The notes below the pieces were generated by a model. It made no database searches. It had not been told where the DNA came from and worked only from the letters and a program-made list of their open reading frames with translations. DNA of 64,000 bases from Candidatus Magasanikbacteria bacterium CG_4_10_14_0_2_um_filter_33_14 (GTDB lineage: Bacteria; Patescibacteriota; Patescibacteriia; Magasanikbacterales; UBA922): the NCBI GenBank assembly GCA_002793035.1, contig PFPL01000045.1, positions 9,669 through 73,668 on the forward strand, given 5' to 3'. The position numbers and the translations under genes are program-made. Of this stretch, positions 371 to 50,904 are shown one piece after another; the first letter of the stretch is position 1, and each line of letters opens with the position of its first letter.

Positions 371-1498
371 ATGAAATTCACATGCACAAAAGAAAACCTA
401 GAATATTCTTTGAGTCTCGTGAGTTCTCTAGCTAGTAAACATACAAACTTACCAATCCTGAGTAACGTGCTAATAAAAGCAACTGATTCAGGGATAGAAA
501 TAAGTTCCACTAACTTGGAGATAGCTATCAAAACACAGCTACGTGCCATGGTAGAACAAACTGGTTCTTTTACCGTCCCTGCAAAAACTCTGACTGACTA
601 TGTCCGTCTGCTTACCAACGAGCAAGTAGAAATTAGTTTGTCAGAAAATGAACTCTTGGTAACCTGTGGCAATTCAAGTACAAAAATAAAAGGTTCTTCT
701 GATGAAGATTATCCTATTTTGCCCGAAGTAGAAGAAATAAATTCTTATGTTTTGAAAGTAGACGATTTGAAAAGTGCTATCAGCAAAGTAATAATTGCTG
801 TAGCAAAAAATGAAATTCGTCCGGAACTGTCAGGTCTTTTTTGTTCATTTTTTACTGAAAAATTTGAAGGAATGATTTTGGCAGCTACTGATTCTTATCG
901 ATTAGCCGAAGCACGTCTGAAAGTCTCACAAGGGGAAACTAGAGAGGTAAAATGTATTATACCGTCTAGGGTCGCTTATGAGATAAACAGGCTCTTACAA
1001 GCTGCCAAAAGCCATGGAGGTGAAGAAAATGTACGTTTTTGGGTAAGTGAAAATCAGATAGCTATTCGCTATGATAATTTCGAGATGACTAGTCGTCTTA
1101 TCGAAGGTCGTTATCCTGATTATACTCAAATTATCCCAAATGATTTCAAAACCTCAGCTACCTTTCCACTCGACGTCATGGTGAACAAAATAAAAGCTGC
1201 TAGTTTATTTACTTCTTCTGGTGTAAATGCTGTTTCTTTTGATCTAAATGTAAAAGAAAAAAATATAGATGTCTCTTCTTCTAGTACACAAGCAGGTGAA
1301 CATACTTCTGCTATTGATGTAGAAATTGAAGGAGAAGAAAATTCAATATTACTCAATCACAGTTATGTGTTAGATGGACTTTCTCATATGGAAAGTGAAC
1401 ACGTTGTCTTTGGTGTAAATAGCAAAGACTCTCCTTGTATTTTTCGTCCTGAAGGCAAAGATAATTATTTGTATATTGTCATGCCTATTCGTCAGTAA
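371..1498 (+). CDS. dnaN: DNA polymerase III beta subunit (sliding clamp)
   Basis: 375 aa; N-terminal MKFTCTKENL...SNVLIKA, typical three-domain beta clamp length and motifs; ATG start. Confidence 0.9.
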   Translation: MKFTCTKENLEYSLSLVSSLASKHTNLPILSNVLIKATDSGIEISSTNLEIAIKTQLRAMVEQTGSFTVPAKTLTDYVRLLTNEQVEISLSENELLVTCGNSSTKIKGSSDEDYPILPEVEEINSYVLKVDDLKSAISKVIIAVAKNEIRPELSGLFCSFFTEKFEGMILAATDSYRLAEARLKVSQGETREVKCIIPSRVAYEINRLLQAAKSHGGEENVRFWVSENQIAIRYDNFEMTSRLIEGRYPDYTQIIPNDFKTSATFPLDVMVNKIKAASLFTSSGVNAVSFDLNVKEKNIDVSSSSTQAGEHTSAIDVEIEGEENSILLNHSYVLDGLSHMESEHVVFGVNSKDSPCIFRPEGKDNYLYIVMPIRQ

Positions 1499-6487: not shown

Positions 6488-6562
6488 TGGAGGTACCGGC
6501 GAGAATCGAACTCACGAATAGAGGTTTTGCAGACCCCTGCCTTACCGCTTGGCTACGGTACC
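6488..6562 (-). tRNA. tRNA-Cys (GCA)
   Basis: Manual cloverleaf: acceptor GGTACCG/CGGTACC, D-arm GCC/GGC, anticodon loop CTGCAAA (GCA), T-arm GTGAG-TTCGATT-CTCGC, discriminator T, CCA encoded. Confidence 0.85.
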
Positions 6563-6827
6563 ATAATATTTTTTACCCAGCTATGATAACACAAAATCTT
6601 TTTAATTTCAATAGTTTACAATTTGTAAAGATAATCTTAACAAAAAGTTATATACATGTTATAGTATGCTGTTCCGTTTTATACGGATAAGTACATTACA
6701 AAAGATAGTTTTAGTGGAGTTTTTTGTCGGTAGGGGATTTTTGTTTCTTTTTTTAAGATATAGAAATCCCCATTCCGACAGGATAATTCTGTTCGGATTT
6801 TACTTTCCAGGGGGAAAGGAGTTTGCC

Positions 6828-7889
6828 GTGATTCTCAATTTCCGTTTCTTGAGCACTCTCGTGCTCATGGCGTTCTTCGTCCTCGTCTCGGCTTGCCGAT
6901 CGGGTGAAGAGGATACTTTCAACAAAGAACTGCTGAGCAACTCGGCTACGGTCGTCAAGCAGCCAAAACCTCAGTGGGGAGGCGCCAAGGAAGACCGCGA
7001 CCAGTGGGGTGAGAGCTCCAAGCCGGAGATGGTTGAGTGCCCTCTCGACCACAATAACCGGTTCAATAAACATTGGGATATGGTGTCCTCTGACACTTGT
7101 CTGGCGCGTGTTCGTCATTCTTCCCCCTCCTACCTCAAGCTACAGCAGGAGAACGACGAGCGTGTCAAGTTGGAGGCACAGCAGAAGACTCATGAAGAGC
7201 ATGAGAAGGCTCGTCGCATCGAAGAAAGGAAGGTGCTCGTAGAGCGTCTCAAGACTTGCTTCGACAAGGAAGATAGTCGTCCTCAGTGGCGACAGGATGT
7301 CGAGTTTGGACTTCGTGCCAAGGACGTTCTTCTCGAGGTGCAGTACGACGACTACGTCGACAGCAAGGTCTATCCCTGCTATGACGACGCGAGGCTCTGC
7401 GTCAAGGATGTCGAGGGCTGTGAGCTCGTCGAGCAGTCCAAGAAGTACAACCTCGAGCGAGACAAGAACTTCGTCGCGCTTATTTGGAAGATTCTCAACT
7501 CCAAGGAGGAGATCGCTCCCCGACAGTTCTGTTGGGATGGATGCTCGGTCTTCTCGCGTGGTGATCTCGCTCGTAAGACGATGGTTGTCATGGAGAAGTA
7601 CGGGTGGACGCCTGAGGACTTCGGCTCCAAGACCGATGACTTCGTGGTGGCCATCAAGAAGAGTTATCAAGAGGCCTTCAAGTTCGCCACCCAGGACATT
7701 GAAGTCGTCTTCAAATGCAAAAAGGACGACCAGGAGGGAGTATTCCTCGACGAGGATTGTCAGTTTCTCGAAACTGAGCAATCCGATGTTTTGTCGGCTC
7801 TCTGTGACGAGTTCTTGAGAACGGCTTCCTTTGCTGGGCTGACCTCTGAGCAGATCAGCAAGCTCCATTGTGAGGGTTTTGACGAGTAG
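6828..7889 (+). CDS. GC-rich, cysteine-rich, acidic putative lipoprotein (compositionally foreign)
   Basis: GTG start preceded by GGGGAAAGGAG; signal peptide ending in lipobox LVSAC; about 14 Cys; coiled-coil segment. GC content clearly far above the flanks by eye (codons ctc/gtc/gac/aag). The overlapping ORFs on the other strand and frame are GC-rich artefacts. Confidence 0.55.
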   Translation: MILNFRFLSTLVLMAFFVLVSACRSGEEDTFNKELLSNSATVVKQPKPQWGGAKEDRDQWGESSKPEMVECPLDHNNRFNKHWDMVSSDTCLARVRHSSPSYLKLQQENDERVKLEAQQKTHEEHEKARRIEERKVLVERLKTCFDKEDSRPQWRQDVEFGLRAKDVLLEVQYDDYVDSKVYPCYDDARLCVKDVEGCELVEQSKKYNLERDKNFVALIWKILNSKEEIAPRQFCWDGCSVFSRGDLARKTMVVMEKYGWTPEDFGSKTDDFVVAIKKSYQEAFKFATQDIEVVFKCKKDDQEGVFLDEDCQFLETEQSDVLSALCDEFLRTASFAGLTSEQISKLHCEGFDE

Positions 7890-8126
7890 ATCGTCGACAT
7901 TCTCCATCTAGACTATCTTTTGGAGGGGAGAACGGTAAACAGTGTAATATCTGTCCCGTTTTCCCATTCCATTCGACTATCTTTTTTATAAATTAGAAAA
8001 GATTGAGAAACAAAAAACTGCCTTAAAAAAGACGGTTTTTTGTTTTAGAGTAATTATTTTCTTTGAATTATTATGTCAATAAAAGGTTGAAAAATATCTT
8101 AAAATGAGTTATACTGCATCTCACTT

Positions 8127-22822: not shown

Positions 22823-23755
22823 ATGAATAAAAATATTGAAATCTTGCAAAATTTTAATTTGAAAAACATGCCCAATTTGGATGTGGCTGTGTTGGGAGCT
22901 CTGGAACTTTTTATGTCTGCTAAGTTACCAAAGTACACTGTAAAATTCAAAAAACCTTTGGTAGTTGGTAGTGGTAATGCTGCTGTTACTGGTAAGGTTT
23001 TGTTCTCTGATAGAGAAGCCGTCTTTGCTGACGAGAGTACTTATCTTGAAAAATTAAATACCATAAAGGGAATAGACGGAGCTATTCTTTTTTCTGCTTC
23101 TGGTAGTAAACATGCTATTCCAATTGCTAGAGAGCTAAAGAAACGTGGTATCAAAACTTTTTTAATTACTAACAATGGCAATGCTCCTGCAAAAAGATTT
23201 GTTACATCTGAAAATTTTTTTGTATTTCCAAAAAATCGTGAACCTTATACATATAATACGTCTACTTATATGGGAATGATTTTTGGAAAGACTCATGAAG
23301 AGCCAGAGCATATTTATAATTTTCTTTTGAAGAAAACTAGTAAAGAATTAAAAAAGAATTTTTTGAAATACGATGCTTTTTATTTGTTGATTCCTGAAGA
23401 ATTTTCTGCTATGAGTGAGATGTTTATGACAAAGTTTGATGAAATGTTTCAACCGGTTGTATCTGGTAGAGTTTTTACTATAGAGCAAAGCAAACATGCT
23501 AAGAGCGTTGTCAAAAATGATAAAGAACTTTTTATAAGTTTTGGTTATGAAAATAAGACTTTTGGTTTGGCAAAAAATAGACTAAATATTACTTTACCAA
23601 AACATGTGGATTATGCTGGTTTTATGTCTGTAGTTTATTATGTGATAGGTAATATTCAAGCAAGTCATCCTCCATATTTCAAAAAAGGAATTGTCAGTTA
23701 TTGTAAGAATGCTTCAAAGATTTTTGGGTATGAGATTAAGCCTATCGTAGAATAA
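22823..23755 (+). CDS. hypothetical protein (possible SIS-like sugar-phosphate-binding fold)
   Basis: 310 aa; LVVGSGNAAVTGKV...AILFSASGSKHAIPIARELKKRGIKTFLITNN resembles the SIS domain pattern; weak. Confidence 0.5.
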   Translation: MNKNIEILQNFNLKNMPNLDVAVLGALELFMSAKLPKYTVKFKKPLVVGSGNAAVTGKVLFSDREAVFADESTYLEKLNTIKGIDGAILFSASGSKHAIPIARELKKRGIKTFLITNNGNAPAKRFVTSENFFVFPKNREPYTYNTSTYMGMIFGKTHEEPEHIYNFLLKKTSKELKKNFLKYDAFYLLIPEEFSAMSEMFMTKFDEMFQPVVSGRVFTIEQSKHAKSVVKNDKELFISFGYENKTFGLAKNRLNITLPKHVDYAGFMSVVYYVIGNIQASHPPYFKKGIVSYCKNASKIFGYEIKPIVE

Positions 23756-23778
23756 AAACAAATACTTCAGAATAATTT

Positions 23779-23870
23779 CCCCTCCTAGTAGGAGGGGCTA
23801 GGGGAGGTCCACAGAAAATCAAGACGTTTTATTTTACAAAAGACCCCCTCTACCTCCCCCTAATAGGGGG
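23779..23870. other. nested GC-rich hairpin element upstream of the zwf-gnd fusion
   Basis: CCCCTCCTA-g-TAGGAGGGG; TAGGGGAGGT...ACCTCCCCCTA; CCCCCTAATAGGGGG. Confidence 0.3.
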
Positions 23871-23895
23871 AGAATCATTTTTTAAATTATTTATT

Positions 23896-26274
23896 ATGAA
23901 AAAACAAAAACAATTTTTAATTCCCGAAGTCCCAACAATATTTACCATCTTTGGAGCTACGGGAGACTTGATGGAACACAAAATTATTCCATCATTATTT
24001 TTTCTTTACAAACAAAAAAGATTACCAAAACATTTGAAAATTTTGGGCTTTGCGCGTCGTGATCTTAGTCATAAAGATTTTCGCAAAAAAGTATTGTCAG
24101 TTTTGCAAGAAATGAATTTTGTAAAAAATGAAAAACAGGCAGAAAAATTTTTGGAATTTTTTGAATACGTAAGAGGTGATTTTGCTGATGCTAAAAGTTT
24201 TGAAAGTTTGGGAGAAAAAGTAAAAGAAATAGAAGACGTTTGGAAAATTTGTGCTAACAAACTTTATTATTTAGCTGTGCCACCAAACTTCATGTCTGAA
24301 ATTGTGAGTAATTTGAAACGTACCAAACTTAGTGATCCTTGTGGTGGAAATATGGGATGGTCTCGTGTGATTGTGGAAAAACCAATTGGTTATGATAGAA
24401 ATAGTGCACAGGAATTGGAAAAGACATTGTCTATTTTGAAAGATGAACAAGTCTATCGCATTGATCATTATTTTGGTAAAGAAATGGTACAAGGAATTTT
24501 CAATTTTCGTTTTTCCAACAATTTTCTTGAGTCAGATTGGAACAATAAACATATTGAAAAAATTGAAATTAAGTTACTTGAAAGTATTGGCGTAGAAACT
24601 CGTGGAAATTTTTATGATAAAGTTGGTGCTTTGCGTGATGTGGGACAAAATCATTTACTTTCTGTTTTGGCTTTACTTGCCATGGACGATCCTCGTGATG
24701 CAAGTGCTGAAAGTGTGCGTGAGATGCGTGAAAAACTTTTGTCACAAATTACTATCATGAATAGTGAGGAAGTAAAAAAAAATACTTTTCGTGCTCAGTA
24801 CGAAGGTTATGACAATATTGCAGGAGTGGAAAAAAATTCTGAAACAGAAACTTATTTCAAATTGAAATTAAATATTGAATCTTTACGTTGGAGTGATGTA
24901 CCTATATATATTGAAAGTGGTAAGAAGGTTGGTCCTGCCAAAAAAGAAGTAGTAGTCACTTTCAAAGACCGTGAACCTTGTATTTGGTGTCAGCCGACTG
25001 GTCCTGCCAAAAATAAAGTAGTATTTTCTTTTGCACCTAAACAAGAAATAAATATAGATTTTTGGCAACGTAAACCAGGGTTTGAAGATGTACTAGAAAA
25101 ACGGGATTTCAAATTTTTGCTTTATAAAAAACAATCAAAATTTCCTTATGTGGAGGAGTATGCCAAACTTTTTTATGATGCCATACAGGGTCAACAGCGC
25201 TGGTTCATGACACGTGAAGAAGTTTTGCACGAATGGCGTATTGTTGATCCAATACTCAAAGCTTGGGAAAAAAGAAGTGTACCTCTTCATACGTATAAAG
25301 TGGATAATAGAGAAATTGTAGATATTGCTGACGACTTTTTCTTAACTAATGAAAAGAATTTCAAAAAAGAAATTGCTATTATGGGTCTTGGTCGTATGGG
25401 CGGAGGGTTGGCACAAAATTTGTTGGAAAAAGGCTGGAAAGTGGTTGGTCATAATAGAACTTGGGAAGTAACAGAAAAGTTGGAAAGTGTGGGTTTGACT
25501 GGCGCAAAAGAGGTAAAAGAAATGGTGGAAAAATTGATAGCGCCGAGAATAGTGTGGCTTATGTTACCAAACGGTAAACCTGTTGACGAGGCAATTTTTG
25601 ATAAAAAAGACGGGTTAATAAATTATTTAGAAAAAGGTGATATCATAATTGATGGAGGAAATTCTTATTTCAAGGACAGTGTTGAACGTGCTAAAAAATT
25701 GCAAAAATATGGTATTCACTTTCTCGATGCTGGTGTTTCGGGTGGTCCTGGTGGAGCTCGCAAAGGTGCTTGTGTGATGATTGGTGGTGACAAAAAAGTT
25801 TTCGCTAGTATTGAAACTCTTTTCAAAGATATGTCTGTTACCAATGGTTACGAATTTTTCCCTGGTTCTGGTGCTGGACACTTTGTCAAAATGGTTCACA
25901 ATGGAATTGAATATGGTATGATGCAAGCTCTTGGTGAAGGTTTCAATGTCATGAAAAAGTCTAATTACAAACTTGATTTGAAAAAAATCACTAGTGTGTA
26001 TAATAATGGTAGTGTGATTGAGTCCAGACTTGTTGGTTGGCTTTATGATGCTTTTGAAATTTATGGCATTGATCTCAAGAAGATAAGTGGTAAAGTAGAT
26101 AGTAATGGTGAAGGTGCTTGGACAGTAGATACTGCCAAAGCAATGAAATTGAAAGCAAAAGTAATAGAAGAATCTCTAAATTTTCGTAAACAATCACAAA
26201 AAAATCCAGATTATACTGGGCAAGTTGTTTCTGCTTTGCGGGGGCAGTTTGGGCAACACAAAGTAGAAAAGTGA
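23896..26274 (+). CDS. fused glucose-6-phosphate 1-dehydrogenase (Zwf) / 6-phosphogluconate dehydrogenase-like (Gnd) protein
   Basis: 792 aa. The N-terminus has G6PD motifs (FTIFGATGDLMEHKIIP; RIDHYFGKEMVQ). The C-terminal approx 300 aa has the 6PGDH NAD-binding fold (IAIMGLGRMGGGLAQNLLEKGWKVVGHNRT; GGNSYFKDSVERAKKLQKYGIHFLDAGVSGGPGGARKGACVMIGGD). Confidence 0.8.
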   Translation: MKKQKQFLIPEVPTIFTIFGATGDLMEHKIIPSLFFLYKQKRLPKHLKILGFARRDLSHKDFRKKVLSVLQEMNFVKNEKQAEKFLEFFEYVRGDFADAKSFESLGEKVKEIEDVWKICANKLYYLAVPPNFMSEIVSNLKRTKLSDPCGGNMGWSRVIVEKPIGYDRNSAQELEKTLSILKDEQVYRIDHYFGKEMVQGIFNFRFSNNFLESDWNNKHIEKIEIKLLESIGVETRGNFYDKVGALRDVGQNHLLSVLALLAMDDPRDASAESVREMREKLLSQITIMNSEEVKKNTFRAQYEGYDNIAGVEKNSETETYFKLKLNIESLRWSDVPIYIESGKKVGPAKKEVVVTFKDREPCIWCQPTGPAKNKVVFSFAPKQEINIDFWQRKPGFEDVLEKRDFKFLLYKKQSKFPYVEEYAKLFYDAIQGQQRWFMTREEVLHEWRIVDPILKAWEKRSVPLHTYKVDNREIVDIADDFFLTNEKNFKKEIAIMGLGRMGGGLAQNLLEKGWKVVGHNRTWEVTEKLESVGLTGAKEVKEMVEKLIAPRIVWLMLPNGKPVDEAIFDKKDGLINYLEKGDIIIDGGNSYFKDSVERAKKLQKYGIHFLDAGVSGGPGGARKGACVMIGGDKKVFASIETLFKDMSVTNGYEFFPGSGAGHFVKMVHNGIEYGMMQALGEGFNVMKKSNYKLDLKKITSVYNNGSVIESRLVGWLYDAFEIYGIDLKKISGKVDSNGEGAWTVDTAKAMKLKAKVIEESLNFRKQSQKNPDYTGQVVSALRGQFGQHKVEK

Positions 26275-26835
26275 GGTTAATCTGAAAATAACAATCCTGA
26301 TATCCGGATAATCCAGATTTACGGATATTTTTCTCCTATTAAGAGGGGGTAAGGGAAATCTTTAGTAAAGTAAAACATCAAGTTCAAATTTACTAGATAC
26401 TGAGTAAATAAAGATTCAACTATCCGGAAATTCCGGATAACTGAAAATGGCAATAACAAAAAACAATCTCTCAAGATTGTTTTTTGTTATTTATTAAGGA
26501 ATTTCTTTTTTTACATCGGGATCATTTTTCATATACTTCCATAATTCTTCAAAAAGCAGGGAATGTGTAACAATGAAATTCGTTATCCAGCGTTGTAACG
26601 AAATTCGTTCTTTCAGACTCATTTCGTCATTCCTTTTATATTTTAAAAGCTCTTGTTTTTCTCTTTTAACATTGACTAAAAGGTGTTTTTGTAATAGAAT
26701 TGGTTTGATTATGATTTGAAAAAAGTTATTTTCGTTTTCATTATTTTGTTAGAAAAAATTATTTATATTTAAGAAACCTGCCTGCCGGCAGGCAGGGATC
26801 CCTCTGCTTAAGGCTGTTCAGGATGACATAACCCT

Positions 26836-28076: not shown

Positions 28077-28472
28077 ATGCGAATTGGAGTAATTATCTTA
28101 CAAGATAAAAAAATATTATTAATGCATAGATTCAAAAAAGGTAGAGAATTTTTTTCTTTACCAGGTGGTGGAGTAGAGGAAAATGAAAGTGTAGAAGAAA
28201 CGGCAACTCGAGAAGCAAAGGAAGAAACAAGTTTAGATATTATTTTGGGAGAAAAGTTTTTTGAATATTATAATGATTTTGATAAGAGAAAAAACATCGT
28301 TTTCTTAACCAAAGAATTTTTAGGTGAAGTAAAGCTTGGTGGGCCTGAAGTAGATAGAATTTCAAAAGAAAATAAATATATGTTGGAGTGGCATGATTTG
28401 AGTGAATTAAAAAAATTGAATATTGTTCCAGAAATATTGAAAGATAAATTAGTCGAAAAATATGGAGTTTAA
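28077..28472 (+). CDS. NUDIX hydrolase
   Basis: Nudix box GGGVEENESVEETATREAKEETSL. Confidence 0.75.
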   Translation: MRIGVIILQDKKILLMHRFKKGREFFSLPGGGVEENESVEETATREAKEETSLDIILGEKFFEYYNDFDKRKNIVFLTKEFLGEVKLGGPEVDRISKENKYMLEWHDLSELKKLNIVPEILKDKLVEKYGV

Positions 28473-28854
28473 AAAGCTTTTGGAAGAACTAAAGAAATTA
28501 AATTTGCCTGTTGAACAATATGCAATATTTGGTAGTGGTCCAATGGCTATAAGAAGTATAAGAGAATCTAGTGATTTGGATATTGTTGTTTTAGATGAAC
28601 TTTGGCAAAAATTTGTTAGTAAATATTCAACAAAGGAAGGAAACGAAAGTATTATCCAAGTTGGCAACATTGAAATTTGCAAAGACATTTTGCCTTGGCT
28701 TGATGACACGGAAGAGATGATAAAGAGATCCGATATTATTGAGGGGTTACCTTTTTTAACTCTAGAAGATACAATTAATTTTAAAACAAAATTGGGAAGG
28801 GAGAAAGATAAAAAGGATATAGAACTTATAAAAGAGTATTTAGAAAAAAACTAG
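28462..28854 (+). CDS. minimal nucleotidyltransferase-fold protein
   Basis: AIFGSGPMAIRSIRESSDLDIVV (GS...D.D pattern). Confidence 0.5.
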   Translation: MEFKKLLEELKKLNLPVEQYAIFGSGPMAIRSIRESSDLDIVVLDELWQKFVSKYSTKEGNESIIQVGNIEICKDILPWLDDTEEMIKRSDIIEGLPFLTLEDTINFKTKLGREKDKKDIELIKEYLEKN

Positions 28855-43708: not shown

Positions 43709-44440
43709 ATGAAGTTTGGAATTTATAAAATATTTGGAATATTGGTGTTTGTTTTTGTTATATCTTTTTTTAAGATTGATTTGGTTTTTTCTGAAAGTAA
43801 ATATTGTAAGTGTACTTCAGACAAAGGTGTTTGCGAAGAAGGGGCAAAGTTAAAAAGTGATTGTGATAAGATGGTACAAGATTCAAATGGTCAATTTACT
43901 CAATGTGTAATGACAACTACTGATAAAAATTGTTCTGCTCTTGCTACGTCTAGAAAATTCTGTGCTTGTGCTGCTGACAAAAGCGATTGTGGTCCTACTA
44001 TTTATGCTGACTTACCAGAATGTGATAGGAACAAAGGTGCTGTCAATGCTAGTTACCAATGTATTCAAGTTGAAAATGGAAAAGGCTGTAGTTCACTTGT
44101 GGATGCTACCCAAAATGGTGATCAATCTGGTAGTAGTCAAGGAGGTTCAGCTTCTAGCTTTCTAGGTGATTTGGACCCACAAATAAAAGGATTAAATAAA
44201 TTACAAGGTGTAGATAATTTACAACAACTGATTGGTCGTGCCATTTCTGCTCTCTTGGGTATTTTGGGTTCTATAGCTTTGGTTATGATGCTTTTTGGTG
44301 GATTTACTTGGATGACTTCTGCTGGTAATGTTGAAAAAAGGAAAAAAGCTACAGGTATTATAATTTGGTCTGTGTTGGGCGTGTCTATCATTTTTGCTAG
44401 TTACGCTATGGTTAATTTTGTTTTGGATATCTTTAAATAA
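43709..44440 (+). CDS. VirB2/TrbC-like (T4SS-pilin-like) two-TM protein with N-terminal Cys-rich ectodomain
   Basis: Signal peptide, about 10 Cys, then LFGGFTWMTSAGNVEKRKKATGII + second TM (family core). Confidence 0.5.
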   Translation: MKFGIYKIFGILVFVFVISFFKIDLVFSESKYCKCTSDKGVCEEGAKLKSDCDKMVQDSNGQFTQCVMTTTDKNCSALATSRKFCACAADKSDCGPTIYADLPECDRNKGAVNASYQCIQVENGKGCSSLVDATQNGDQSGSSQGGSASSFLGDLDPQIKGLNKLQGVDNLQQLIGRAISALLGILGSIALVMMLFGGFTWMTSAGNVEKRKKATGIIIWSVLGVSIIFASYAMVNFVLDIFK

Positions 44441-44445
44441 ATATT

Positions 44446-45825
44446 ATGTTTAAAAAAATTTCAGTGCTCTCTCTTCTTTCTATATTTTTGTTGACAGCTG
44501 GGTTTGGTTGTAAGAGTGTTTCACAAACTGAGCAAGCATCTATTAAGGCGGTTAAGCTTACTTATTGGACTGTGTATAATGATGTGGATGAGTTACGTGT
44601 TTTGGCACAACAATATACACAGCGTTATCCACATGTGTCTATCAATATAAAACAAGTAAAATATGAGGAATTTGATAGTTTGTTTACCAATGCTTTGGCT
44701 GATGATGTTGGTCCAGATATTGTTTCTCAGCACGTGAGGTGGCTTCGTAAAAATCAATCTAGATTATTACCAGCACCTGGAGTAACAAAGATGCATCGTA
44801 TTGTAATTGCCAATAATTTTTCAAAAGAACAACAATTTTTGACAGATTCCAATGCTTTGCCTTCTGCTAGTTATATAAAAAATAATTATGTTCAAACTGT
44901 TTATAATGATGTTGTGCTCGACAAACAAATTTATGGTTTGCCTTTGTCTATGGATACTCTTTCTATTTTTTATAATCAGGATTTACTTGATAGAGCAGGT
45001 ATTGCCGAAGCCCCAAAAAATTGGAATGCTTTTGCTGAAGATGTCCAAAAACTTACTAAGTTCAATAGTATTGGAGATATCATCCAATCTGGTGCAGCTC
45101 TTGGTACTGCCAATAATATCAATGCCGCTACAGATATCATTGCTATGTTTATTATGCAAAGTGGACTAAAAGTAGCTAGTGGTAATACAGTTACTTTTGC
45201 GGCAGGTATAGACAAAGCTCAAGATAGAAATGTATCTATTTTGAGTGCTCTTGATTTTTATACTGATTTTGCTAGACCTACCAAAGAAGTTTATAGTTGG
45301 AATGAAAAGAAAGGTGATGCCTTAGATGAATTTGTTCGTGGTAGAGTAGGTTTTTATTTTGGTTATTCTTATGATTTTGCAACTATAAAACAAAGATCTC
45401 CTCAAATGAATTTACGTATTATGCCAATGCTACAGCTTGATCCAGAAAATCCAAGCAATGTAGCTAATTATTGGGTGGAGTCAGTCGTCCAAAAAACAAA
45501 ATATCCAAATGAAGCTTGGGATTTTGTAAGGTTTATTACTTCTCCAGAAAATGTAGCCAAGTATACAGAAAAGATTTTTAGTCCAAGTCCAATTCGTGCA
45601 CAAATCACACTTCAACAGGAAGATGAAAATCTTGGACCTTTTGCTACGCAAGCTTTATTTGCTGAAAATTGGTACAAAGGTAAAGATGTGGATGCTGTCG
45701 CTACTTCTTTTGATTCTATGATTACAGAACTTTTGAAACCATCTGATGATGAAAATGATTTATTGAAAAAAGATAAGCAAATCATTATTAATACCGCTGC
45801 CAGAATTCAGCAGACAATGCAATAA
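44446..45825 (+). CDS. orphan extracellular solute-binding lipoprotein (SBP family 1-like)
   Basis: Lipobox LTAGFGC; MalE-like sugar SBP blocks; no adjacent permease or ATPase. Confidence 0.65.
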   Translation: MFKKISVLSLLSIFLLTAGFGCKSVSQTEQASIKAVKLTYWTVYNDVDELRVLAQQYTQRYPHVSINIKQVKYEEFDSLFTNALADDVGPDIVSQHVRWLRKNQSRLLPAPGVTKMHRIVIANNFSKEQQFLTDSNALPSASYIKNNYVQTVYNDVVLDKQIYGLPLSMDTLSIFYNQDLLDRAGIAEAPKNWNAFAEDVQKLTKFNSIGDIIQSGAALGTANNINAATDIIAMFIMQSGLKVASGNTVTFAAGIDKAQDRNVSILSALDFYTDFARPTKEVYSWNEKKGDALDEFVRGRVGFYFGYSYDFATIKQRSPQMNLRIMPMLQLDPENPSNVANYWVESVVQKTKYPNEAWDFVRFITSPENVAKYTEKIFSPSPIRAQITLQQEDENLGPFATQALFAENWYKGKDVDAVATSFDSMITELLKPSDDENDLLKKDKQIIINTAARIQQTMQ

Positions 45826-45828
45826 TAT

Positions 45829-47112
45829 ATGAAAAATTTTTATAAAATTTTATTTTTTACAGTAATATTGTTTGCTTCATTATTTTCTTTGCAGAGTACT
45901 GTTTTAGCAGCTGGTCCTGTAGATGATTTTTTTTCTTCCGTAGACAAAGGTTTGAATTATCAGTGTTGCCTGTTGAAAAGGTCAAATGATCAGACTGTAG
46001 CTTGTGTAAAAAATCATACAGTAGGGGGTGGTTCAAGAATAGGTTGTTATGAAAATTATTCTGATCCTGAAACTGTAAATGCTAGGATTCAAGAAATGTA
46101 TTATAGTGGTGATACTTTGTATGATTTTAGGACTCAAAATATAACAAAGTTAGAGAATGTCGACTGTAATGCTATTGCTGCTTGTGTAGAGTTTTCAGAT
46201 CAAGAAAAAATGTTTTCAGGTACAATAAGTAAAAGTGATTTTGATTTAATTAATATAGCTACTTTCAATGTCAAAGTATCAAAAATGTTGCCTGTTACTG
46301 ATTATAATTTTAGTAAATTAGAATGTATCAATTGTAATATCACGCCAGGATTAAAAGCTACTAGTGGTAGTTTTTCTATATCAAATAGTAATTTGAGTGT
46401 ACATGAACTAACTATGAATTTTGAGTTGACGCCTTACGAGTATATAAAGGGGAGTCAAGACAAAAAGTTGCCAGCTACTGTTAATTTAGAATTTAAGGCT
46501 AGTGGAAAAACATCTGAGGGTAAAGATCTTACAACTTTTTTAAAATTTCCTTTGATTATAAAAGGAGCCAACTGTAAAGATTTTGATAATGATGAAGCAA
46601 AATGTTCTACCAATAGTGGCTGTCTGTTTGTTTCTGCAACCAAAAAATGTGGAGAAGTCGCCGATGCTTCTCTATGTAGTGTCTTGAACAAAAATGAGTG
46701 TGCCGTTTCTATAGCTTGTACACAGGATGCTAACGAAAAGTGTGTAAGCAATGTTTCCAAAGCTGTAGATGAATATATTGCCAAGGATCATCAAATGCCT
46801 AAAGGTTATTCAGGGCCTTTACCTGAGTGTGCTTTTGATGGCTCTTGTCGTGATGTAAACAAGTTGGTAGAGCTAGCGCTAAAAGTAGTTGATTATTTGT
46901 TTTCTATTGTAGCTGGTTTAGCTTTCGTTTTCTTTATTTATGGAGGATTTACTTGGATATTTTCTTTTGGAAATCCCGAAAAAGTAAAAAAAGGTCAACA
47001 GATTTTTGTCTATGCTGTGATTGGTCTTATCATTGTATTTAGTGCTTATATATTGGTTAGTTTCTTGCTCAATGTTTTGGGTGTGAATGATGCATATATA
47101 ATTATAAATTAA
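45829..47112 (+). CDS. VirB2/TrbC-like two-TM protein with large N-terminal Cys-rich ectodomain
   Basis: Signal peptide, approx 330-aa Cys-rich region, then IYGGFTWIFSFGNPEKVKKGQQI + TM. Confidence 0.5.
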   Translation: MKNFYKILFFTVILFASLFSLQSTVLAAGPVDDFFSSVDKGLNYQCCLLKRSNDQTVACVKNHTVGGGSRIGCYENYSDPETVNARIQEMYYSGDTLYDFRTQNITKLENVDCNAIAACVEFSDQEKMFSGTISKSDFDLINIATFNVKVSKMLPVTDYNFSKLECINCNITPGLKATSGSFSISNSNLSVHELTMNFELTPYEYIKGSQDKKLPATVNLEFKASGKTSEGKDLTTFLKFPLIIKGANCKDFDNDEAKCSTNSGCLFVSATKKCGEVADASLCSVLNKNECAVSIACTQDANEKCVSNVSKAVDEYIAKDHQMPKGYSGPLPECAFDGSCRDVNKLVELALKVVDYLFSIVAGLAFVFFIYGGFTWIFSFGNPEKVKKGQQIFVYAVIGLIIVFSAYILVSFLLNVLGVNDAYIIIN

Positions 47113-47119
47113 AAAAATT

Positions 47120-47482
47120 ATGAAAATATCTTTTAAGAGTTCATTTTTTCTTATAATGTCTGTGGCTTTATCATTTTTTGTTTATAATTTGGTACAGGCT
47201 GTGAATTGTGAGGACAATAGAACTTGTCTAGAAAACCCCATAAAAAGTAATACTATTCCGGAAATTTTTGGTAATGGAATTAAGATATCTACTGGTATTA
47301 TGGGTTCACTTGCGTTGTTAGTTTTTATTTATGGTGGGGCTGTTTGGCTTACTTCTGCAGGCAATCCAGAAAAAGTAAAGAAAGGTACGAGTGCTATGGT
47401 TTGGGCTGTGTTGGGTATGGTTGTTATTTTTAGTAGTTATGCTATAATTAACCTAGTTTTGAATGGGTTGGGAGTAAATTAA
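47120..47482 (+). CDS. VirB2/TrbC-like small two-TM protein (paralog)
   Basis: IYGGAVWLTSAGNPEKVKKGTSA. Confidence 0.55.
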   Translation: MKISFKSSFFLIMSVALSFFVYNLVQAVNCEDNRTCLENPIKSNTIPEIFGNGIKISTGIMGSLALLVFIYGGAVWLTSAGNPEKVKKGTSAMVWAVLGMVVIFSSYAIINLVLNGLGVN

Positions 47483-47633
47483 AACATTGATTGCACGGAT
47501 TTAATAAGATTACACTGATATTTACTTAGTAAGAATATAATTACGATAAATAAGTTATAAAATACTTACAATATTTTTTAAAAAAATATAATTATGTTAA
47601 AAAAAACTTTTGCATTGAAGGGAGGTGATACAC

Positions 47634-48083
47634 ATGAATTTGTTATATAAGCTTGCTAAATACAAAACAGTTCTTTCAATTATTTTTGTATTAGCTTTAG
47701 GACTTGTGCTATCACCAAATTTGGCTATGGGTCAAGGTTATGATCCAAATGATCCATTCGGCGTTGACGTCGTTGAACAAGGTGATGGTTCAGAGGGAGG
47801 CGGACTTGCTCTAGGTACTTCAGATTTGAGAGCTACTATCGTTAGAGTAATCAATATCGCTTTGAGTTTACTTGGTATCGTAGCTGTTGTCGTCGTACTT
47901 ATCGGTGGTTTCCAATGGATGACTGCTGGTGGTGATGACGGTAAAGTAGAAACAGCTCGTAAATGGATTTTCTCAGGTATTATTGGTCTTGCTATTATTC
48001 TTAGTGCTTGGGCTATCGCTAGATTTGCTCTTGTCAATCTTGGTAACGCTACCAACACTCCTGGTGCTGAAAATTATCAATAA
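47634..48083 (+). CDS. VirB2/TrbC-like small two-TM protein (paralog)
   Basis: GGGAGGTG RBS then ATG; LIGGFQWMTAGGDDGKVETARKWI. Confidence 0.55.
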   Translation: MNLLYKLAKYKTVLSIIFVLALGLVLSPNLAMGQGYDPNDPFGVDVVEQGDGSEGGGLALGTSDLRATIVRVINIALSLLGIVAVVVVLIGGFQWMTAGGDDGKVETARKWIFSGIIGLAIILSAWAIARFALVNLGNATNTPGAENYQ

Positions 48084-48205
48084 ATTTAAATTTCAGAGCA
48101 GATATTTGCAAAAATATTCTGCTCTGAATATTTATTTTGAGAGGATAAAAAATTATTTTTCACAAAAATTTTTGGAAAATCATCTTTTATTCTTTATAAA
48201 ACATT

Positions 48206-48634
48206 ATGATAAACAAAAAGTTAATTAATTTAGTTTTTGTTTTTTTATTTGCTTTCGCTGTCTTGGTACCAGCTAGTGCACCAACTTTGGCAGCGCCTAG
48301 TTCTACTTGTGATCAAGAAGGGGATTTATTGGGTCTTGGTTGTGTAGGAAGTAATACAGGTCTTAGTGACAAAGATCCTCGTATTATTATTGTCCAAATT
48401 ATAAATGTTATACTTGGTTTATTGGGAATCGTAGTTACTGTGCTTATTGTCTATGCTGGATTTTTGTGGATGACAGCCGGTGGTGAAGAGTCAAAAGTAG
48501 AAAAGGCAAGAAAGATTATTGTTGCAGCCATTATTGGACTTGCTATTATCTTGTCAGCTTTTGCTATTACTAGGTTTGTTTCTTTTGGTCTTTATCAAGC
48601 AACAATGGGTAGTGAATATCCTGTTGCTAAATAA
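48206..48634 (+). CDS. VirB2/TrbC-like small two-TM protein (paralog)
   Basis: VYAGFLWMTAGGEESKVEKARKII. Confidence 0.55.
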   Translation: MINKKLINLVFVFLFAFAVLVPASAPTLAAPSSTCDQEGDLLGLGCVGSNTGLSDKDPRIIIVQIINVILGLLGIVVTVLIVYAGFLWMTAGGEESKVEKARKIIVAAIIGLAIILSAFAITRFVSFGLYQATMGSEYPVAK

Positions 48635-48644
48635 TTTTGTATTT

Positions 48645-49310
48645 ATGAATAATAAAAAATTTTTTTTAACATTTGGATTCCTTACTGGTTTTTTTCTTCT
48701 GGTTATGATGTTTGCTCCAGGTTTTGCTTTTGCTGACAATTATGGTCTAGATGCAACTGCTGGAGCCGCAGGTTTGCCTAGTGGTGTAGATTTGCCAACT
48801 GTTTTGGGTAATGTGATTGGTACAGCACTTTCTATGATTTCTGTATTATTTTTTGGTCTCATGCTTTATGGTGGAATTATGTGGATGACAGCCAGGGGAA
48901 AGAGTGAAAACACTCAAAAAGCACTTGATACTATTATCGCAGCTATCATTGGTGTGGTGATTGTCTTGGCTGCTTATGCTATTACCAATTTTGTTTTTAG
49001 TAACGTTCAATCTGGAGCGGGTGGTGCAGGTGGCGGAACTGGAGGAACTGGAGGCAATAATACTCCACCTGTTTCTCAGTCATGTGTTATTGGTAATACA
49101 GAGGTTTCTAGTTTTTGTTCTACAGCATGTAATGTTGTTCAGGATGCTTGTACAGGAAATGATTACTGTCAAGATTTTTGTAAACCTAATGATACAGGTC
49201 TTCTTTGTATTCCTATGGCTTCTCAATCCTCTTTGTGTTCTGTATATTCTAATGTTATTGCAAATTGTACAGCTGTAGAGTCTGACACAGAATTGTGTAA
49301 AGTACAATAA
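48645..49310 (+). CDS. VirB2/TrbC-like two-TM protein with Gly-rich linker and C-terminal Cys-rich domain
   Basis: LYGGIMWMTARGKSENTQKALDTI; SGAGGAGGGTGGTGGNN linker; 12 Cys in the last approx 85 aa. Confidence 0.5.
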   Translation: MNNKKFFLTFGFLTGFFLLVMMFAPGFAFADNYGLDATAGAAGLPSGVDLPTVLGNVIGTALSMISVLFFGLMLYGGIMWMTARGKSENTQKALDTIIAAIIGVVIVLAAYAITNFVFSNVQSGAGGAGGGTGGTGGNNTPPVSQSCVIGNTEVSSFCSTACNVVQDACTGNDYCQDFCKPNDTGLLCIPMASQSSLCSVYSNVIANCTAVESDTELCKVQ

Positions 49311-49314
49311 ATTT

Positions 49315-49686
49315 ATGCGTAAATTTTTGGTAACAATTTTATTTGTAGGAATTAGTCTATTTTCTGTTTCCAATGTTTATGCAAAAAAAACTTTGAATGA
49401 TGCTGATAGTGCACTAGATACTGTATCTCAAAAAACAGGAATTGATCAAAAAGATTTTTCAGCTGTTACAGGAAATGTAGTGAACATGATTTTTATTTTT
49501 GTAGGGTTGATATTTTTTGCTTTGATGGTCTATGCTGGTCTCCGTTGGATGACAGCTCGTGATCAAGCCGACAAAGTAGAAAAGGCTAGAAATACGATGA
49601 TAGCCGCTGTGATAGGTCTTATAATCGTCGTAGCCGCTTATGCTATTACCAATTTCTTACAAACCAAAATTATAAATGGTGGTTAA
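49315..49686 (+). CDS. VirB2/TrbC-like small two-TM protein (paralog)
   Basis: VYAGLRWMTARDQADKVEKARNTM. Confidence 0.55.
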   Translation: MRKFLVTILFVGISLFSVSNVYAKKTLNDADSALDTVSQKTGIDQKDFSAVTGNVVNMIFIFVGLIFFALMVYAGLRWMTARDQADKVEKARNTMIAAVIGLIIVVAAYAITNFLQTKIINGG

Positions 49687-49695
49687 AATTTTCAT

Positions 49696-50067
49696 ATGAA
49701 AAAAATAAAAAATATTTTTGCAAATTTGTTTATAGCTTTTATATTGGCTTCATCTTTTACTTTGCCGGTATTTGCTCAAGGTATCAAAAATGCTGGTGAT
49801 AATCTAGATCCTATCGCTCAAAAAGCGGGGATTACTGAAGGTGATGTCGGAAATATTACGGGTACTGTTATCTCTGCTATTTTGAGTCTGGTTGGTATTA
49901 TTTTTCTAATTCTCATGGTTTACGCTGGTATTATTTGGATGACAGCCAGAGGTGATGATAGTAAGACTGAAAATGCTAAGAAAACGATTACAGCCTCAAT
50001 AATAGGTCTTTTTATAGTAGTAAGTGCTTATGCTATTACTCAATTTGTAACTAGTAGATTTAACTAA
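49696..50067 (+). CDS. VirB2/TrbC-like small two-TM protein (paralog)
   Basis: VYAGIIWMTARGDDSKTENAKKTI. Confidence 0.55.
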   Translation: MKKIKNIFANLFIAFILASSFTLPVFAQGIKNAGDNLDPIAQKAGITEGDVGNITGTVISAILSLVGIIFLILMVYAGIIWMTARGDDSKTENAKKTITASIIGLFIVVSAYAITQFVTSRFN

Positions 50068-50072
50068 ATTTT

Positions 50073-50480
50073 ATGAAATATATATTTTTTTCTTTTCTAC
50101 TTATTTTTTCTTTTGTTACTTTTGCGCCACAAGCTTTGGCTTTGGATTTGGGAGGTGACACTCTAAAAAATGCTGCTGACAAAGGTGGTTATGACAAAAA
50201 TACCAATGAAACAACTTTGGCTAGCAATATTGGTATGGTAGTGAATATTATCTTGTCTATTATTGGTGTTTTGTTCACTGTTTTGATGGTTTATGCTGGA
50301 TATACTTGGATGGTAGCTAGAGGTGATGAGACAAAGATAGATAAGGCTAAGAAAATTATTACAGCTTCTATTATTGGACTTATTATTACACTTGGAGCTT
50401 ATAGTATTACCAACTTCATTATTCCAAGAATACTTGATCAGACTCTTGCTCAAGTAAATAGTTGGTTATTATTTGTCTAA
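50073..50480 (+). CDS. VirB2/TrbC-like small two-TM protein (paralog)
   Basis: VYAGYTWMVARGDETKIDKAKKII. Confidence 0.55.
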   Translation: MKYIFFSFLLIFSFVTFAPQALALDLGGDTLKNAADKGGYDKNTNETTLASNIGMVVNIILSIIGVLFTVLMVYAGYTWMVARGDETKIDKAKKIITASIIGLIITLGAYSITNFIIPRILDQTLAQVNSWLLFV

Positions 50481-50482
50481 TT

Positions 50483-50899: not shown

Positions 50900-50904
50900 T
50901 ATTT

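What the first reader, a model, noticed from the sequence alone, without database searches (positions are those of the whole stretch)
23896..26274. Single-polypeptide Zwf-Gnd fusion (G6PD fused to a 6PGDH-like NAD-binding module)
This is a continuous 792-aa ORF with no internal stop or RBS. It joins a complete G6PD (Rossmann motif plus the RIDHYFGKE signature) to an approx 300-aa 6PGDH-type module, with no lactonase between them. Fusing steps one and three of the oxidative pentose-phosphate branch is, as far as I know, not a standard architecture. It would be notable in a reduced genome that may depend on pentose or NADPH salvage.
Basis: partly seen in the sequence, partly recalled or inferred. 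Interest (0 to 1): 0.55.

Follow-up and report, generated by a model that had tools for sequence, protein, structure and literature searches.

The report
Fused G6PD–6PGDH enzyme of CPR bacteria

Summary
The 792-aa ORF at 23896..26274 (+) is real. Residues 14-472 are a complete glucose-6-phosphate dehydrogenase (TIGR00871, above the curated cut-off). Residues 492-792 are a complete short-form decarboxylating 6-phosphogluconate dehydrogenase (TIGR00872/NF007161, above cut-off). A roughly 19-residue, mostly helical connector joins them, and there is no lactonase domain. It is not an assembly error: the identical protein lies on at least 23 independently assembled contigs. More than 115 cluster representatives of 779-836 aa, 49-89% identical, share the architecture across Patescibacteria/CPR. 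All catalytic and substrate-binding residues checked in both halves are invariant in 118/118 fusions. Both halves carry NADP+-type signatures, so 2 NADPH per glucose-6-phosphate is predicted. The architecture is not new. A 2024 mSystems paper reports the G6pd–Pgd fusion in one DPANN archaeon and "60 bacterial candidate phyla assemblies", and a G6PDH/6PGDH fusion was described in a diatom in 2008. No biochemical study was found. No lactonase gene lies in the window or near the fusion in six relatives. The more interesting side observation is the upstream 310-aa gene. It belongs to an unannotated, highly conserved CPR/DPANN family with a two-SIS phosphosugar-isomerase fold, and it sits next to transaldolase in an archaeal pentose-phosphate gene cluster.

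The parts
23896..26274 (+). Zwf–Gnd fusion gene (792 codons plus stop)
   Evidence: ORF; four Pfam domains; NCBIfam equivalogs for both halves above their cut-offs; identical protein on at least 23 contigs.
23935..25311 (+). Glucose-6-phosphate dehydrogenase module (residues 14-472). It contains GATGDL 20-25, A53-R54-R55 (NADP 2'-phosphate Arg), EKP 161-163, RIDHYFGKE 188-196 and the catalytic His253 in QNH.
   Evidence: TIGR00871 scores 438.4 bits against a cut-off of 400.6. It aligns with solved G6PDs 9emm, 7e6h and 1h93. The motif residues are invariant or nearly so in 118 fusions.
25312..25368 (+). Connector (residues 473-491). Its sequence varies and its length is nearly constant. It is predicted to be a helix (473-487) followed by about 4 residues.
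   Evidence: Per-column conservation is 0.12-0.4 with few gaps. The AlphaFold model gives helix H473-487 with pLDDT 93 falling to 78, and pTM 0.81 overall.
25369..26271 (+). Short-form decarboxylating 6-phosphogluconate dehydrogenase module (residues 492-792). It contains GLGRMG 497-502, N520-R521-T522 (NADP-type), Ser615, Lys665, His668, Asn669, Glu672, Arg764, and tail residues Arg782 and His788.
   Evidence: TIGR00872 scores 323.3 against 297.2 and NF007161 scores 337 against 271. It aligns with short 6PGDH structures 4e21, 6vpb, 8ihe and 10gw. The residues are invariant in 118/118.
22823..23755 (+). Upstream neighbour: a 310-aa member of an unannotated CPR/DPANN family with a two-SIS phosphosugar-isomerase fold. 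It is the likely supplier of glucose-6-phosphate (inferred).
23779..23873 (+). Structured GC-rich spacer between the two genes. It has hairpins at 23779-23797 and 23854-23872. The second is followed by a T-run (terminator-like) that ends 18 nt before the ATG.
   Evidence: Terminator-like sites. Folding gives -45.7 kcal/mol, z = -3.96. Sequence.
23768..26834 (.). Segment that is present in the window but absent from a syntenic Parcubacteria-labelled relative, where the SIS-like gene is followed directly by ychF.
   Evidence: Gene order of L092. tblastx synteny: window 22946-23767 matches L092 8130-8951, and window 26835-27927 matches L092 9032-10094.

Best explanation
[quoted passage not shown] It belongs to a family that is widespread in Patescibacteria (CPR); this genome is closest to Candidatus Magasanikbacteria. 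The N-terminal half oxidises glucose-6-phosphate to 6-phosphoglucono-delta-lactone while reducing NADP+. His253 acts as general base with Asp190, and substrate binding involves His191, Lys195 and Lys162. The lactone is not processed by any domain of this protein. It must hydrolyse spontaneously, which takes minutes at neutral pH (established chemistry), or be hydrolysed by an enzyme encoded elsewhere. The C-terminal half then oxidatively decarboxylates 6-phosphogluconate to ribulose-5-phosphate plus CO2 with a second NADP+. Lys665 is the base and Glu672 the acid, and Arg782 and His788 on the free C-terminal tail complete the active site of a partner subunit. The net reaction is glucose-6-P to ribulose-5-P + CO2 + 2 NADPH from one polypeptide. 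The fusion enforces 1:1 expression of the two dehydrogenases. This would keep 6-phosphogluconate, a known inhibitor of phosphoglucose isomerase, from accumulating, and it saves regulatory sequence in a small genome. The order Zwf-then-Gnd leaves the Gnd tail free, which the 6PGDH dimer mechanism requires. Shown here: the ORF, the domains, conservation of catalytic residues, the distribution and the context. Inferred: activity, NADP+ preference, oligomeric state, the fate of the lactone and the selective advantage.
For: The ORF and domains are established. Both halves pass NCBIfam equivalog cut-offs. Residue-by-residue alignment to solved G6PDs and 6PGDHs is collinear. All 30 or so catalytic, substrate and Rossmann positions checked are invariant or nearly so in 118 full-length fusions that are 49-89% identical, which means purifying selection on both activities. 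NADP-type signatures occur in both halves in 102/118 fusions, including this one: R54 in G6PD, and N520-R521-T522 in Gnd where the NAD+-dependent 8ihe has Asp. The identical protein was assembled independently at least 23 times. The architecture recurs in Magasanik-, Peregrini-, Buchanan-, Levy-, Kaiser-, Portnoy-, Roizman- and Woesebacteria and in Microgenomates. The AF2 model is confident, with pLDDT 89.8, pTM 0.81 and a helical connector. The context is sugar-phosphate and redox metabolism: tal–cupin PGI–fusion in L007, FBP aldolase–fusion with MsrA/B, PGK and GAPDH in L094, a ferric-reductase-like NAD(P)H oxidoreductase and cytochrome b5 in L006, and an SIS-like isomerase upstream here and in L093. 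A two-gene version in the same order and the same frame, 12 nt apart, exists in a Moraniibacteriota genome and is a plausible precursor. The fusion is reported in the literature.
Against: There is no biochemical evidence for this protein or any CPR homolog; none was found in 8 literature searches. No lactonase was found in the 64-kb window or within 6-10 kb either side of the fusion in six relatives, so how step 2 occurs is unknown. The rest of the genome could not be examined. The cofactor assignment rests on motif analogy only. The G6PD profile match stops about 19 positions short of the canonical C-terminus (profile positions 3-467 of 486), so its C-terminal segment is remodelled. The hairpins and lack of a nearby Shine-Dalgarno sequence before the ATG leave expression signals unclear.
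Confidence: 0.85

Rival explanations
1. Assembly or sequencing artefact: two adjacent genes (zwf, gnd) were merged by a lost stop codon or an indel.
For: A genuinely split version exists in one CPR genome. In L009, zwf ends with TAA, and 12 nt later gnd starts with ATG in the same frame, so a single base error could in principle fuse them.
Against: The identical 792-aa product occurs on at least 23 contigs from independent ENA and JGI assemblies. More than 115 non-redundant homologs of 779-836 aa have the same continuous architecture at 49-89% identity. Connector length is conserved. There is no start codon or RBS for a separate gnd.
Confidence: 0.01
2. The C-terminal module is not a working 6PGDH. 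Instead it is a regulatory or differently specific beta-hydroxyacid-dehydrogenase-like domain (HIBADH or tartronate-semialdehyde-reductase type).
For: The NAD_binding_2 fold is shared with that superfamily, and weak hits to TIGR01505, TIGR01692 and others are listed. Pfam 6PGD covers only 116 of 290 profile positions, because the profile models the long form.
Against: TIGR00872 (323.3 vs 297.2) and NF007161 (337 vs 271) pass their cut-offs over the full profile length, while HIBADH-type models score 50-92 bits against cut-offs of 290-450. The 6PGDH-specific residues Ser615, Lys665, His668, Asn669, Glu672, Arg764, Arg782 and His788 are invariant in 118/118. The best PDB matches are short 6PGDHs.
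Confidence: 0.03
3. The polypeptide is a precursor. It is cleaved after translation, or the second half is translated separately, so the cell contains two ordinary enzymes and the fusion has no mechanistic meaning.
For: Kroth et al. note that some diatom fusion enzymes may be cleaved post-translationally. The connector is the least conserved segment.
Against: The connector is short, and it is predicted to be a well-ordered helix continuous with the G6PD C-terminal region rather than an exposed loop. No internal RBS or suitable start exists. Bacteria rarely process metabolic enzymes this way (general knowledge).
Confidence: 0.05
4. The fusion is bifunctional, but it does not work as a classical NADPH-producing oxidative pentose-phosphate branch. 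One or both halves might use NAD+ for fermentative redox balance, or the G6PD half might have broad hexose-6-phosphate specificity like H6PD.
For: About 14% of family members have non-canonical residues at one of the two cofactor positions, for example Asp at 520 or Asp at 54. Characterised short-form 6PGDHs include NAD+-dependent enzymes such as 8ihe. CPR organisms are inferred to be fermenters (PMC5113843).
Against: This protein has the NADP-type residues in both halves: R54-R55 and N520-R521-T522. Neighbouring genes in relatives are typical NADPH consumers or thiol-repair enzymes.
Confidence: 0.08

Closest known systems
G6pd–Pgd fusion of DPANN/candidate-phyla bacteria (mSystems 2024, PMC11237513, cluster 1367)
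   Same: [quoted passage not shown] The window protein is 83% identical to a Candidatus Magasanikbacteria protein and has more than 115 full-length fused homologs in CPR.
   Different: Nothing substantive. The paper gives one sentence and no sequence analysis, cofactor prediction, context or biochemistry. I could not check directly that its cluster contains this family.
Diatom cytosolic G6PDH/6PGDH fusion protein (Phaeodactylum tricornutum 54663; Kroth et al. 2008, PMC2173943)
   Same: It fuses steps 1 and 3 of the oxidative branch, has a short spacer (8-25 aa in the diatom fusions), and the lactonase is encoded separately.
   Different: It is eukaryotic, and homology, domain order and 6PGDH form (long or short) were not tested here. 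It is probably an independent fusion event. It may be cleaved post-translationally.
G6PD–6-phosphogluconolactonase fusions (Plasmodium GluPho, Giardia G6PD::6PGL PMC6165198, human H6PD PDB 8em2)
   Same: They have an N-terminal G6PD fused to the next pathway activity. H6PD matches residues 17-366 of the query.
   Different: In those proteins the partner is the lactonase (step 2, PF01182). Here there is no lactonase domain, and the partner is step 3.
Unfused zwf plus short-form gnd gene pairs
   Same: They have the same two enzyme families. A Moraniibacteriota genome has zwf, then 12 nt, then gnd, in the same order and frame.
   Different: They are two polypeptides. In most non-CPR bacteria sampled (Chlorobi, Anaerolineae, Acidobacteriota, Actinomycetota and others) the order is the reverse, gnd then zwf, and identity to the window halves is only 31-46%.
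Short-form (about 300-350 aa) 6PGDH structures 4e21, 6vpb, 6xeq/10gw, 8ihe (Gnd2, NAD+-dependent)
   Same: They share the fold, the catalytic Lys/Glu/His/Asn and the C-terminal Arg/His tail.
   Different: They are stand-alone proteins. They carry insertions of 13-20 residues that the window protein lacks. All four have Asp at the position of N520 (4e21, 6vpb, 10gw and 8ihe; only 8ihe is named NAD+-dependent), where the window protein has the NADP-type Asn-Arg-Thr.

Membership tests
Glucose-6-phosphate dehydrogenase (TIGR00871 zwf; PF00479+PF02781) | Whole-protein score above the curated equivalog cut-off | tested here: met
   438.4 bits against a cut-off of 400.6, residues 14-472, profile positions 3-467 of 486. 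Pfam G6PD_N scores 187 bits and G6PD_C 254 bits.
Glucose-6-phosphate dehydrogenase (TIGR00871 zwf; PF00479+PF02781) | Dinucleotide-binding GxxGDL, EKPxG, the RIDHYLGKE substrate motif and the catalytic His of the QNH motif | tested here: met
   GATGDL 20-25, EKP 161-163, RIDHYFGKE 188-196 and H253. G20, G23, D24, E161, K162, P163, H191, Y192, K195, N252 and H253 are invariant in 118/118 fusions. They align with 9emm, 7e6h and 1h93.
Glucose-6-phosphate dehydrogenase (TIGR00871 zwf; PF00479+PF02781) | G6P-dependent NAD(P)+ reduction | not testable with these tools
   This needs an enzyme assay.
Short-form decarboxylating 6-phosphogluconate dehydrogenase (TIGR00872 gnd_rel / NF007161) | Whole-protein score above the curated cut-off, over the full profile length | tested here: met
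   TIGR00872 scores 323.3 against 297.2 (profile 3-297 of 299). NF007161 scores 337 against 271 (profile 2-300 of 302).
Short-form decarboxylating 6-phosphogluconate dehydrogenase (TIGR00872 gnd_rel / NF007161) | Catalytic Lys/Glu pair, the Ser/His/Asn/Arg substrate ligands, and the Arg/His of the C-terminal tail that enters the partner subunit | tested here: met
   S615, K665, H668, N669, E672, Y673, R764, R782 and H788 are all invariant in 118/118. The residue correspondence to sheep 6PGDH numbering comes from my own knowledge plus the alignments.
Short-form decarboxylating 6-phosphogluconate dehydrogenase (TIGR00872 gnd_rel / NF007161) | NADP+ versus NAD+ preference (the N-R-T 2'-phosphate motif after strand beta-2) | tested here: inconclusive
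   The window has H519-N520-R521-T522, like NADP-dependent long forms. NAD+-dependent 8ihe has Asp at that position. The motif is only indicative, and kinetics are needed.
3-hydroxyisobutyrate / tartronate-semialdehyde-reductase-type beta-hydroxyacid dehydrogenases (the rival assignment for the C-terminal half) | Score above the family cut-off | tested here: not met
   TIGR01692 scores 82.5 against 291.6, TIGR01505 scores 91.9 against 340.75, and NF008592 scores 90.8 against 397.
G6pd–Pgd fusion of candidate-phyla bacteria/DPANN (PMC11237513) | A single ORF containing both enzymes, in a candidate-phyla (CPR) genome | tested here: met
   (the best named homolog is a Candidatus Magasanikbacteria protein at 83% identity), and for the published description. 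Direct identity with the paper's cluster 1367 was not tested.
G6PD–6PGL bifunctional enzymes (GluPho, H6PD) | Presence of a 6-phosphogluconolactonase domain (PF01182) | tested here: not met
   There is no such Pfam hit at E<=0.01. The only sequence outside the two dehydrogenases is a 19-residue connector.
Diatom G6PDH/6PGDH fusion (Phatr 54663) | Homologous fusion with the same domain order | not tested
Only the description in PMC2173943 was read.

The most novel reading that the evidence does not exclude
The fusion is more than co-expression. The two obligate oligomers (G6PD dimer/tetramer, 6PGDH dimer/tetramer) build a defined hetero-functional assembly in which the lactone is hydrolysed or handed over within the complex. 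This would make a dedicated 6-phosphogluconolactonase dispensable in these minimal genomes. Together with the uncharacterised two-SIS isomerase encoded upstream, it would form a compact, lactonase-free fructose-6-P to ribulose-5-P + 2 NADPH module specific to CPR/DPANN.
Probability: 0.12. Interest if true: 0.55.

Novelty: already known. Interest (0 to 1): 0.22.

Why it matters
The fusion itself matters mainly for annotation. NCBI labels these proteins simply 'glucose-6-phosphate dehydrogenase', so pathway reconstructions of CPR genomes can wrongly score 6PGDH as missing and the oxidative branch as incomplete. Recognising the second half shows that this organism can make ribulose-5-phosphate and 2 NADPH from glucose-6-phosphate with one gene. 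That is relevant to how ultra-small symbionts supply reducing power, for example for the class II ribonucleotide reductase in this window and for thiol-repair systems near the gene in relatives. The open biochemical question is how step 2, lactone hydrolysis, is handled. That question is testable with a single recombinant protein. The unannotated SIS-fold family next door is the more promising lead for new enzymology.

Tried and rejected
(1) Sequencing or assembly artefact: rejected.
(2) HIBADH-like or regulatory C-terminal domain: rejected.
(3) Lactonase in the window or near the gene. Pfam annotations of all called genes across the 64 kb and within 6-10 kb either side in six relatives show no PF01182, PF10282 or PF08450. 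Whole genomes could not be fetched, so absence from the organism is not established. One patescibacterium in the literature does have a lactonase (PMC13059738).
(4) Co-variation of cofactor-specificity residues between the two halves: no pattern (102 both NADP-type, 11+4 mixed, 1 both altered).
(5) The GTDB genome scan was truncated at 600 candidate stretches, so it is a sample and not a census. It mostly returned non-CPR gnd-then-zwf gene pairs. One fused hit (L008) is labelled 'uncultured Gammaproteobacteria', which I did not resolve; it may be mis-binning.
(6) AFDB50 structural search, intended to find eukaryotic or UniProt fusions: the library was unavailable.
(7) Literature searches for a CPR-specific description using 'fusion', 'Patescibacteria' or 'Parcubacteria' gave nothing. 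The relevant sentence was found only through a broader query.
(8) Rfam search of the flanking intergenic regions found nothing at or near gathering scores.
(9) A profile of the SIS-like family against PDB sequences gave no significant hit. Only fold comparison works.
Full report
**Observation.** The window is about 33% G+C, and the probability that 792 consecutive codons stay open by chance is about 4e-28. Pfam finds four domains in order:
- G6PD_N, residues 18-199
- G6PD_C, residues 203-472
- NAD_binding_2, residues 492-647
- 6PGD, residues 661-770

Nothing else is found, and in particular there is no lactonase domain. NCBIfam equivalog models give TIGR00871 (zwf) at 438 bits against a cut-off of 400.6 for residues 14-472. 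For residues 492/493-792 they give TIGR00872 (short 'gnd_rel' 6PGDH) at 323 bits against 297 and NF007161 at 337 against 271, each over the entire profile length. The C-terminal part is therefore a whole short-form 6-phosphogluconate dehydrogenase, not just an NAD-binding module. HIBADH and tartronate-semialdehyde-reductase models fall far below their cut-offs.

**Not an artefact.** The identical 792-aa protein is encoded on at least 23 contigs from separate ENA and JGI assemblies. A search of 5.8 billion proteins returned 120 top hits. 117 of them are 779-836 aa, carry the same four domains and are 49-89% identical. Sources name them as Magasanik-, Peregrini-, Buchanan-, Levy-, Kaiser-, Portnoy- and Roizmanbacteria and Parcubacteria. 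One JGI entry is already named 'glucose-6-phosphate 1-dehydrogenase/6-phosphogluconate dehydrogenase (decarboxylating)'. At 50% clustering there are about 13-15 fused representatives (730-808 aa, 41-52% identical) before unfused zwf and gnd proteins appear. The named divergent representatives are Microgenomates, Woesebacteria and Patescibacteria. The junction DNA has no stop, no Shine-Dalgarno-like motif and no usable internal start.

**Are both halves catalytic?** I aligned 118 full-length fusions.
- In the G6PD half, the GxxGDL fingerprint, EKP, D190/H191/Y192/K195 of the RIDHYxxKE motif and the catalytic His253 (QNH) are invariant or nearly so.
- In the Gnd half, the following are invariant in 118/118: GxGxMG, Ser615, Lys665, His668, Asn669, Glu672, Tyr673, the GEGxWT motif, Arg764, and the tail residues Arg782 and His788.

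Alignments with solved G6PDs (9emm, 7e6h, 1h93) and with short and long 6PGDHs (4e21, 6vpb, 8ihe, 10gw, 2w90) are collinear through these motifs. Which residue plays which catalytic role comes from established knowledge of L. mesenteroides and human G6PD and of sheep 6PGDH, not from a test here.

For cofactor signatures, the window protein has A53-R54-R55 (the 2'-phosphate Arg) in G6PD. In Gnd it has H519-N520-R521-T522, where the NAD+-dependent 8ihe has Asp. 102 of the 118 fusions are NADP-type at both positions, and the exceptions show no co-variation. I infer 2 NADPH per glucose-6-phosphate.

**Connector and model.** Residues 473-491 are the least conserved stretch, but their length is almost fixed. 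AlphaFold2 with a 40-sequence alignment gives pLDDT 89.8 and pTM 0.81. It predicts residues 473-487 as a helix followed by only about 4 residues before strand beta-1 of the Gnd Rossmann fold. This is a tight join and not a floppy tether. The G6PD profile match ends about 19 positions before the canonical C-terminus, so the connector helix probably replaces the usual G6PD C-terminal segment. No PDB chain spans both halves.

**Origin and distribution.** A capped sample of GTDB species genomes was analysed ORF by ORF. Outside CPR the two genes are usually adjacent but separate, and in the opposite order (short gnd, then zwf). This holds in Chlorobi, Anaerolineae, Acidobacteriota, Actinomycetota and others. 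Fused ORFs in zwf-then-gnd order appeared only in CPR-like hits: L011 (Paceibacteria) and L008, which is labelled Gammaproteobacteria and remains unresolved. A Moraniibacteriota genome (L009) has zwf ending in TAA, then 12 nt, then an ATG-initiated gnd in the same frame. This is a plausible pre-fusion state.

Compared with a syntenic relative labelled Parcubacteria (L092), window 23768-26834 is an indel. In L092 the upstream SIS-like gene is followed directly by ychF. The fusion gene is therefore accessory at this site.

**Context.** The 64-kb window begins near the replication origin (dnaN at 371..1498). It contains typical CPR genes such as type IV pilus genes, many T4SS-pilin paralogs and a class II ribonucleotide reductase. 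It has no lactonase, transketolase, transaldolase, Rpe or Rpi. In relatives the fusion sits in these contexts:
- after transaldolase and a cupin-type glucose-6-P isomerase (L007)
- after a class I FBP aldolase, with MsrA/MsrB, flavodoxin, PGK and GAPDH nearby (L094)
- between a ferric-reductase-like NAD(P)H oxidoreductase and a cytochrome b5 protein (L006)

No lactonase lies within 6-10 kb either side in any of them. The 140-nt spacer upstream of the gene carries two GC-rich hairpins, the second followed by a T-run. This suggests the gene is transcribed separately from its upstream neighbour.

It is directly upstream of the fusion in a 62%-identical relative as well (L093). In a Woesearchaeota genome it terminates an rpiB-rpe-tkt-tal cluster, the same position that the cupin PGI occupies in L007. 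I infer a hexose-6-phosphate isomerase that links fructose-6-P to glucose-6-P (confidence about 0.55). This is a side observation and not part of the finding.

**Mechanism proposed.**
- Step 1: glucose-6-P + NADP+ gives 6-phosphoglucono-delta-lactone + NADPH (N-terminal half).
- Step 2: the lactone is hydrolysed spontaneously or by an unlinked enzyme. This is not resolved.
- Step 3: 6-phosphogluconate + NADP+ gives ribulose-5-P + CO2 + NADPH (C-terminal half, which needs the tail of a partner subunit, so the protein must be at least a dimer).

The fusion guarantees 1:1 stoichiometry and should limit build-up of 6-phosphogluconate. Placing Gnd at the C-terminus keeps its tail free. These functional statements are inferences.

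**Comparison with what is known.** The architecture has been reported. [quoted passage not shown] Kroth et al. 2008 describe a cytosolic G6PDH/6PGDH fusion in Phaeodactylum. The better-known fusions (Plasmodium GluPho, Giardia, human H6PD) join G6PD to the lactonase instead. That defining domain is absent here. I found no biochemical or structural study of any G6PD–6PGDH fusion.

**Verdict.** Novelty is low, because the protein and its family are in public databases and the fusion has been noted in print. Interest is 0.22. The residual value lies in annotation (NCBI names only the first half), in the untested fate of the lactone, and in the neighbouring uncharacterised SIS-fold family.

Noticed in passing
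[not shown]
   Followed up: partly
L009 7340-7480 (Candidatus Moraniibacteriota JALVQA010000001.1): This is an unfused version of the same gene pair in the same order. The zwf gene ends with TAA, and 12 nt later (including an in-frame TAG) gnd starts with ATG in the same reading frame. Loss of two stop codons would recreate the fusion.
   Followed up: partly
protein P0208 (735 aa): This is a different fusion built on the same short Gnd module (51% identical). A classical phosphoglucose isomerase domain (PF00342) is fused N-terminally to NAD_binding_2 + 6PGD. P0264 (606 aa) has an NAD_binding_2 domain in front of a complete G6PD. The Gnd module seems prone to fusion with upstream-pathway enzymes.
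   Followed up: no
window 23768-26834 versus L092 8952-9031: There is a presence/absence polymorphism. A syntenic relative labelled Parcubacteria has the SIS-like gene followed directly by ychF and lacks the roughly 3.1-kb segment carrying Zwf-Gnd and its hairpin-rich spacers. The NUDIX gene and the 130-aa gene at window 28077-28854 also have no counterpart there.
   Followed up: partly
window 23765-23895 and 26415-26445, 26777-26796: GC-rich perfect hairpins flank the fusion gene, for example CCCCTCCTAGTAGGAGGGG, CTCCCCCTAATAGGGGGAG and CCTGCCTGCCGGCAGGCAGG. The upstream spacer folds at -45.7 kcal/mol (z = -3.96). There is no Rfam match. They could be terminators or a repeated intergenic element.
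   Followed up: partly
window about 6750-7950, next to tRNA-Cys (6488-6562, - strand): This 1.2-kb island has 52-56% G+C in a roughly 32% G+C genome. It has long ORFs open on both strands (6666..7889 +, 7140..7907 -), no Pfam hit, no Rfam hit and no tandem repeats. Public gene calls take the minus-strand ORF, whose translation looks like an antisense shadow. The plus-strand ORF has a lipobox-like 'LVSAC'. It may be a horizontally acquired gene at a tRNA.
   Followed up: partly
window about 43709-51372 (+): This is a run of about eleven consecutive paralogous genes that all hit PF18895 (T4SS_pilin), interrupted by a solute-binding protein gene. It lies downstream of N-methyl (type IV pilin-like) genes.
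   Followed up: no
L008 (CAYIQM010000003.1): A full-length fused Zwf-Gnd (809 aa; 42% and 56% identical to the two halves) lies on a contig labelled 'uncultured Gammaproteobacteria bacterium'. This is either a mis-binned CPR contig or a rare occurrence outside CPR.
   Followed up: no
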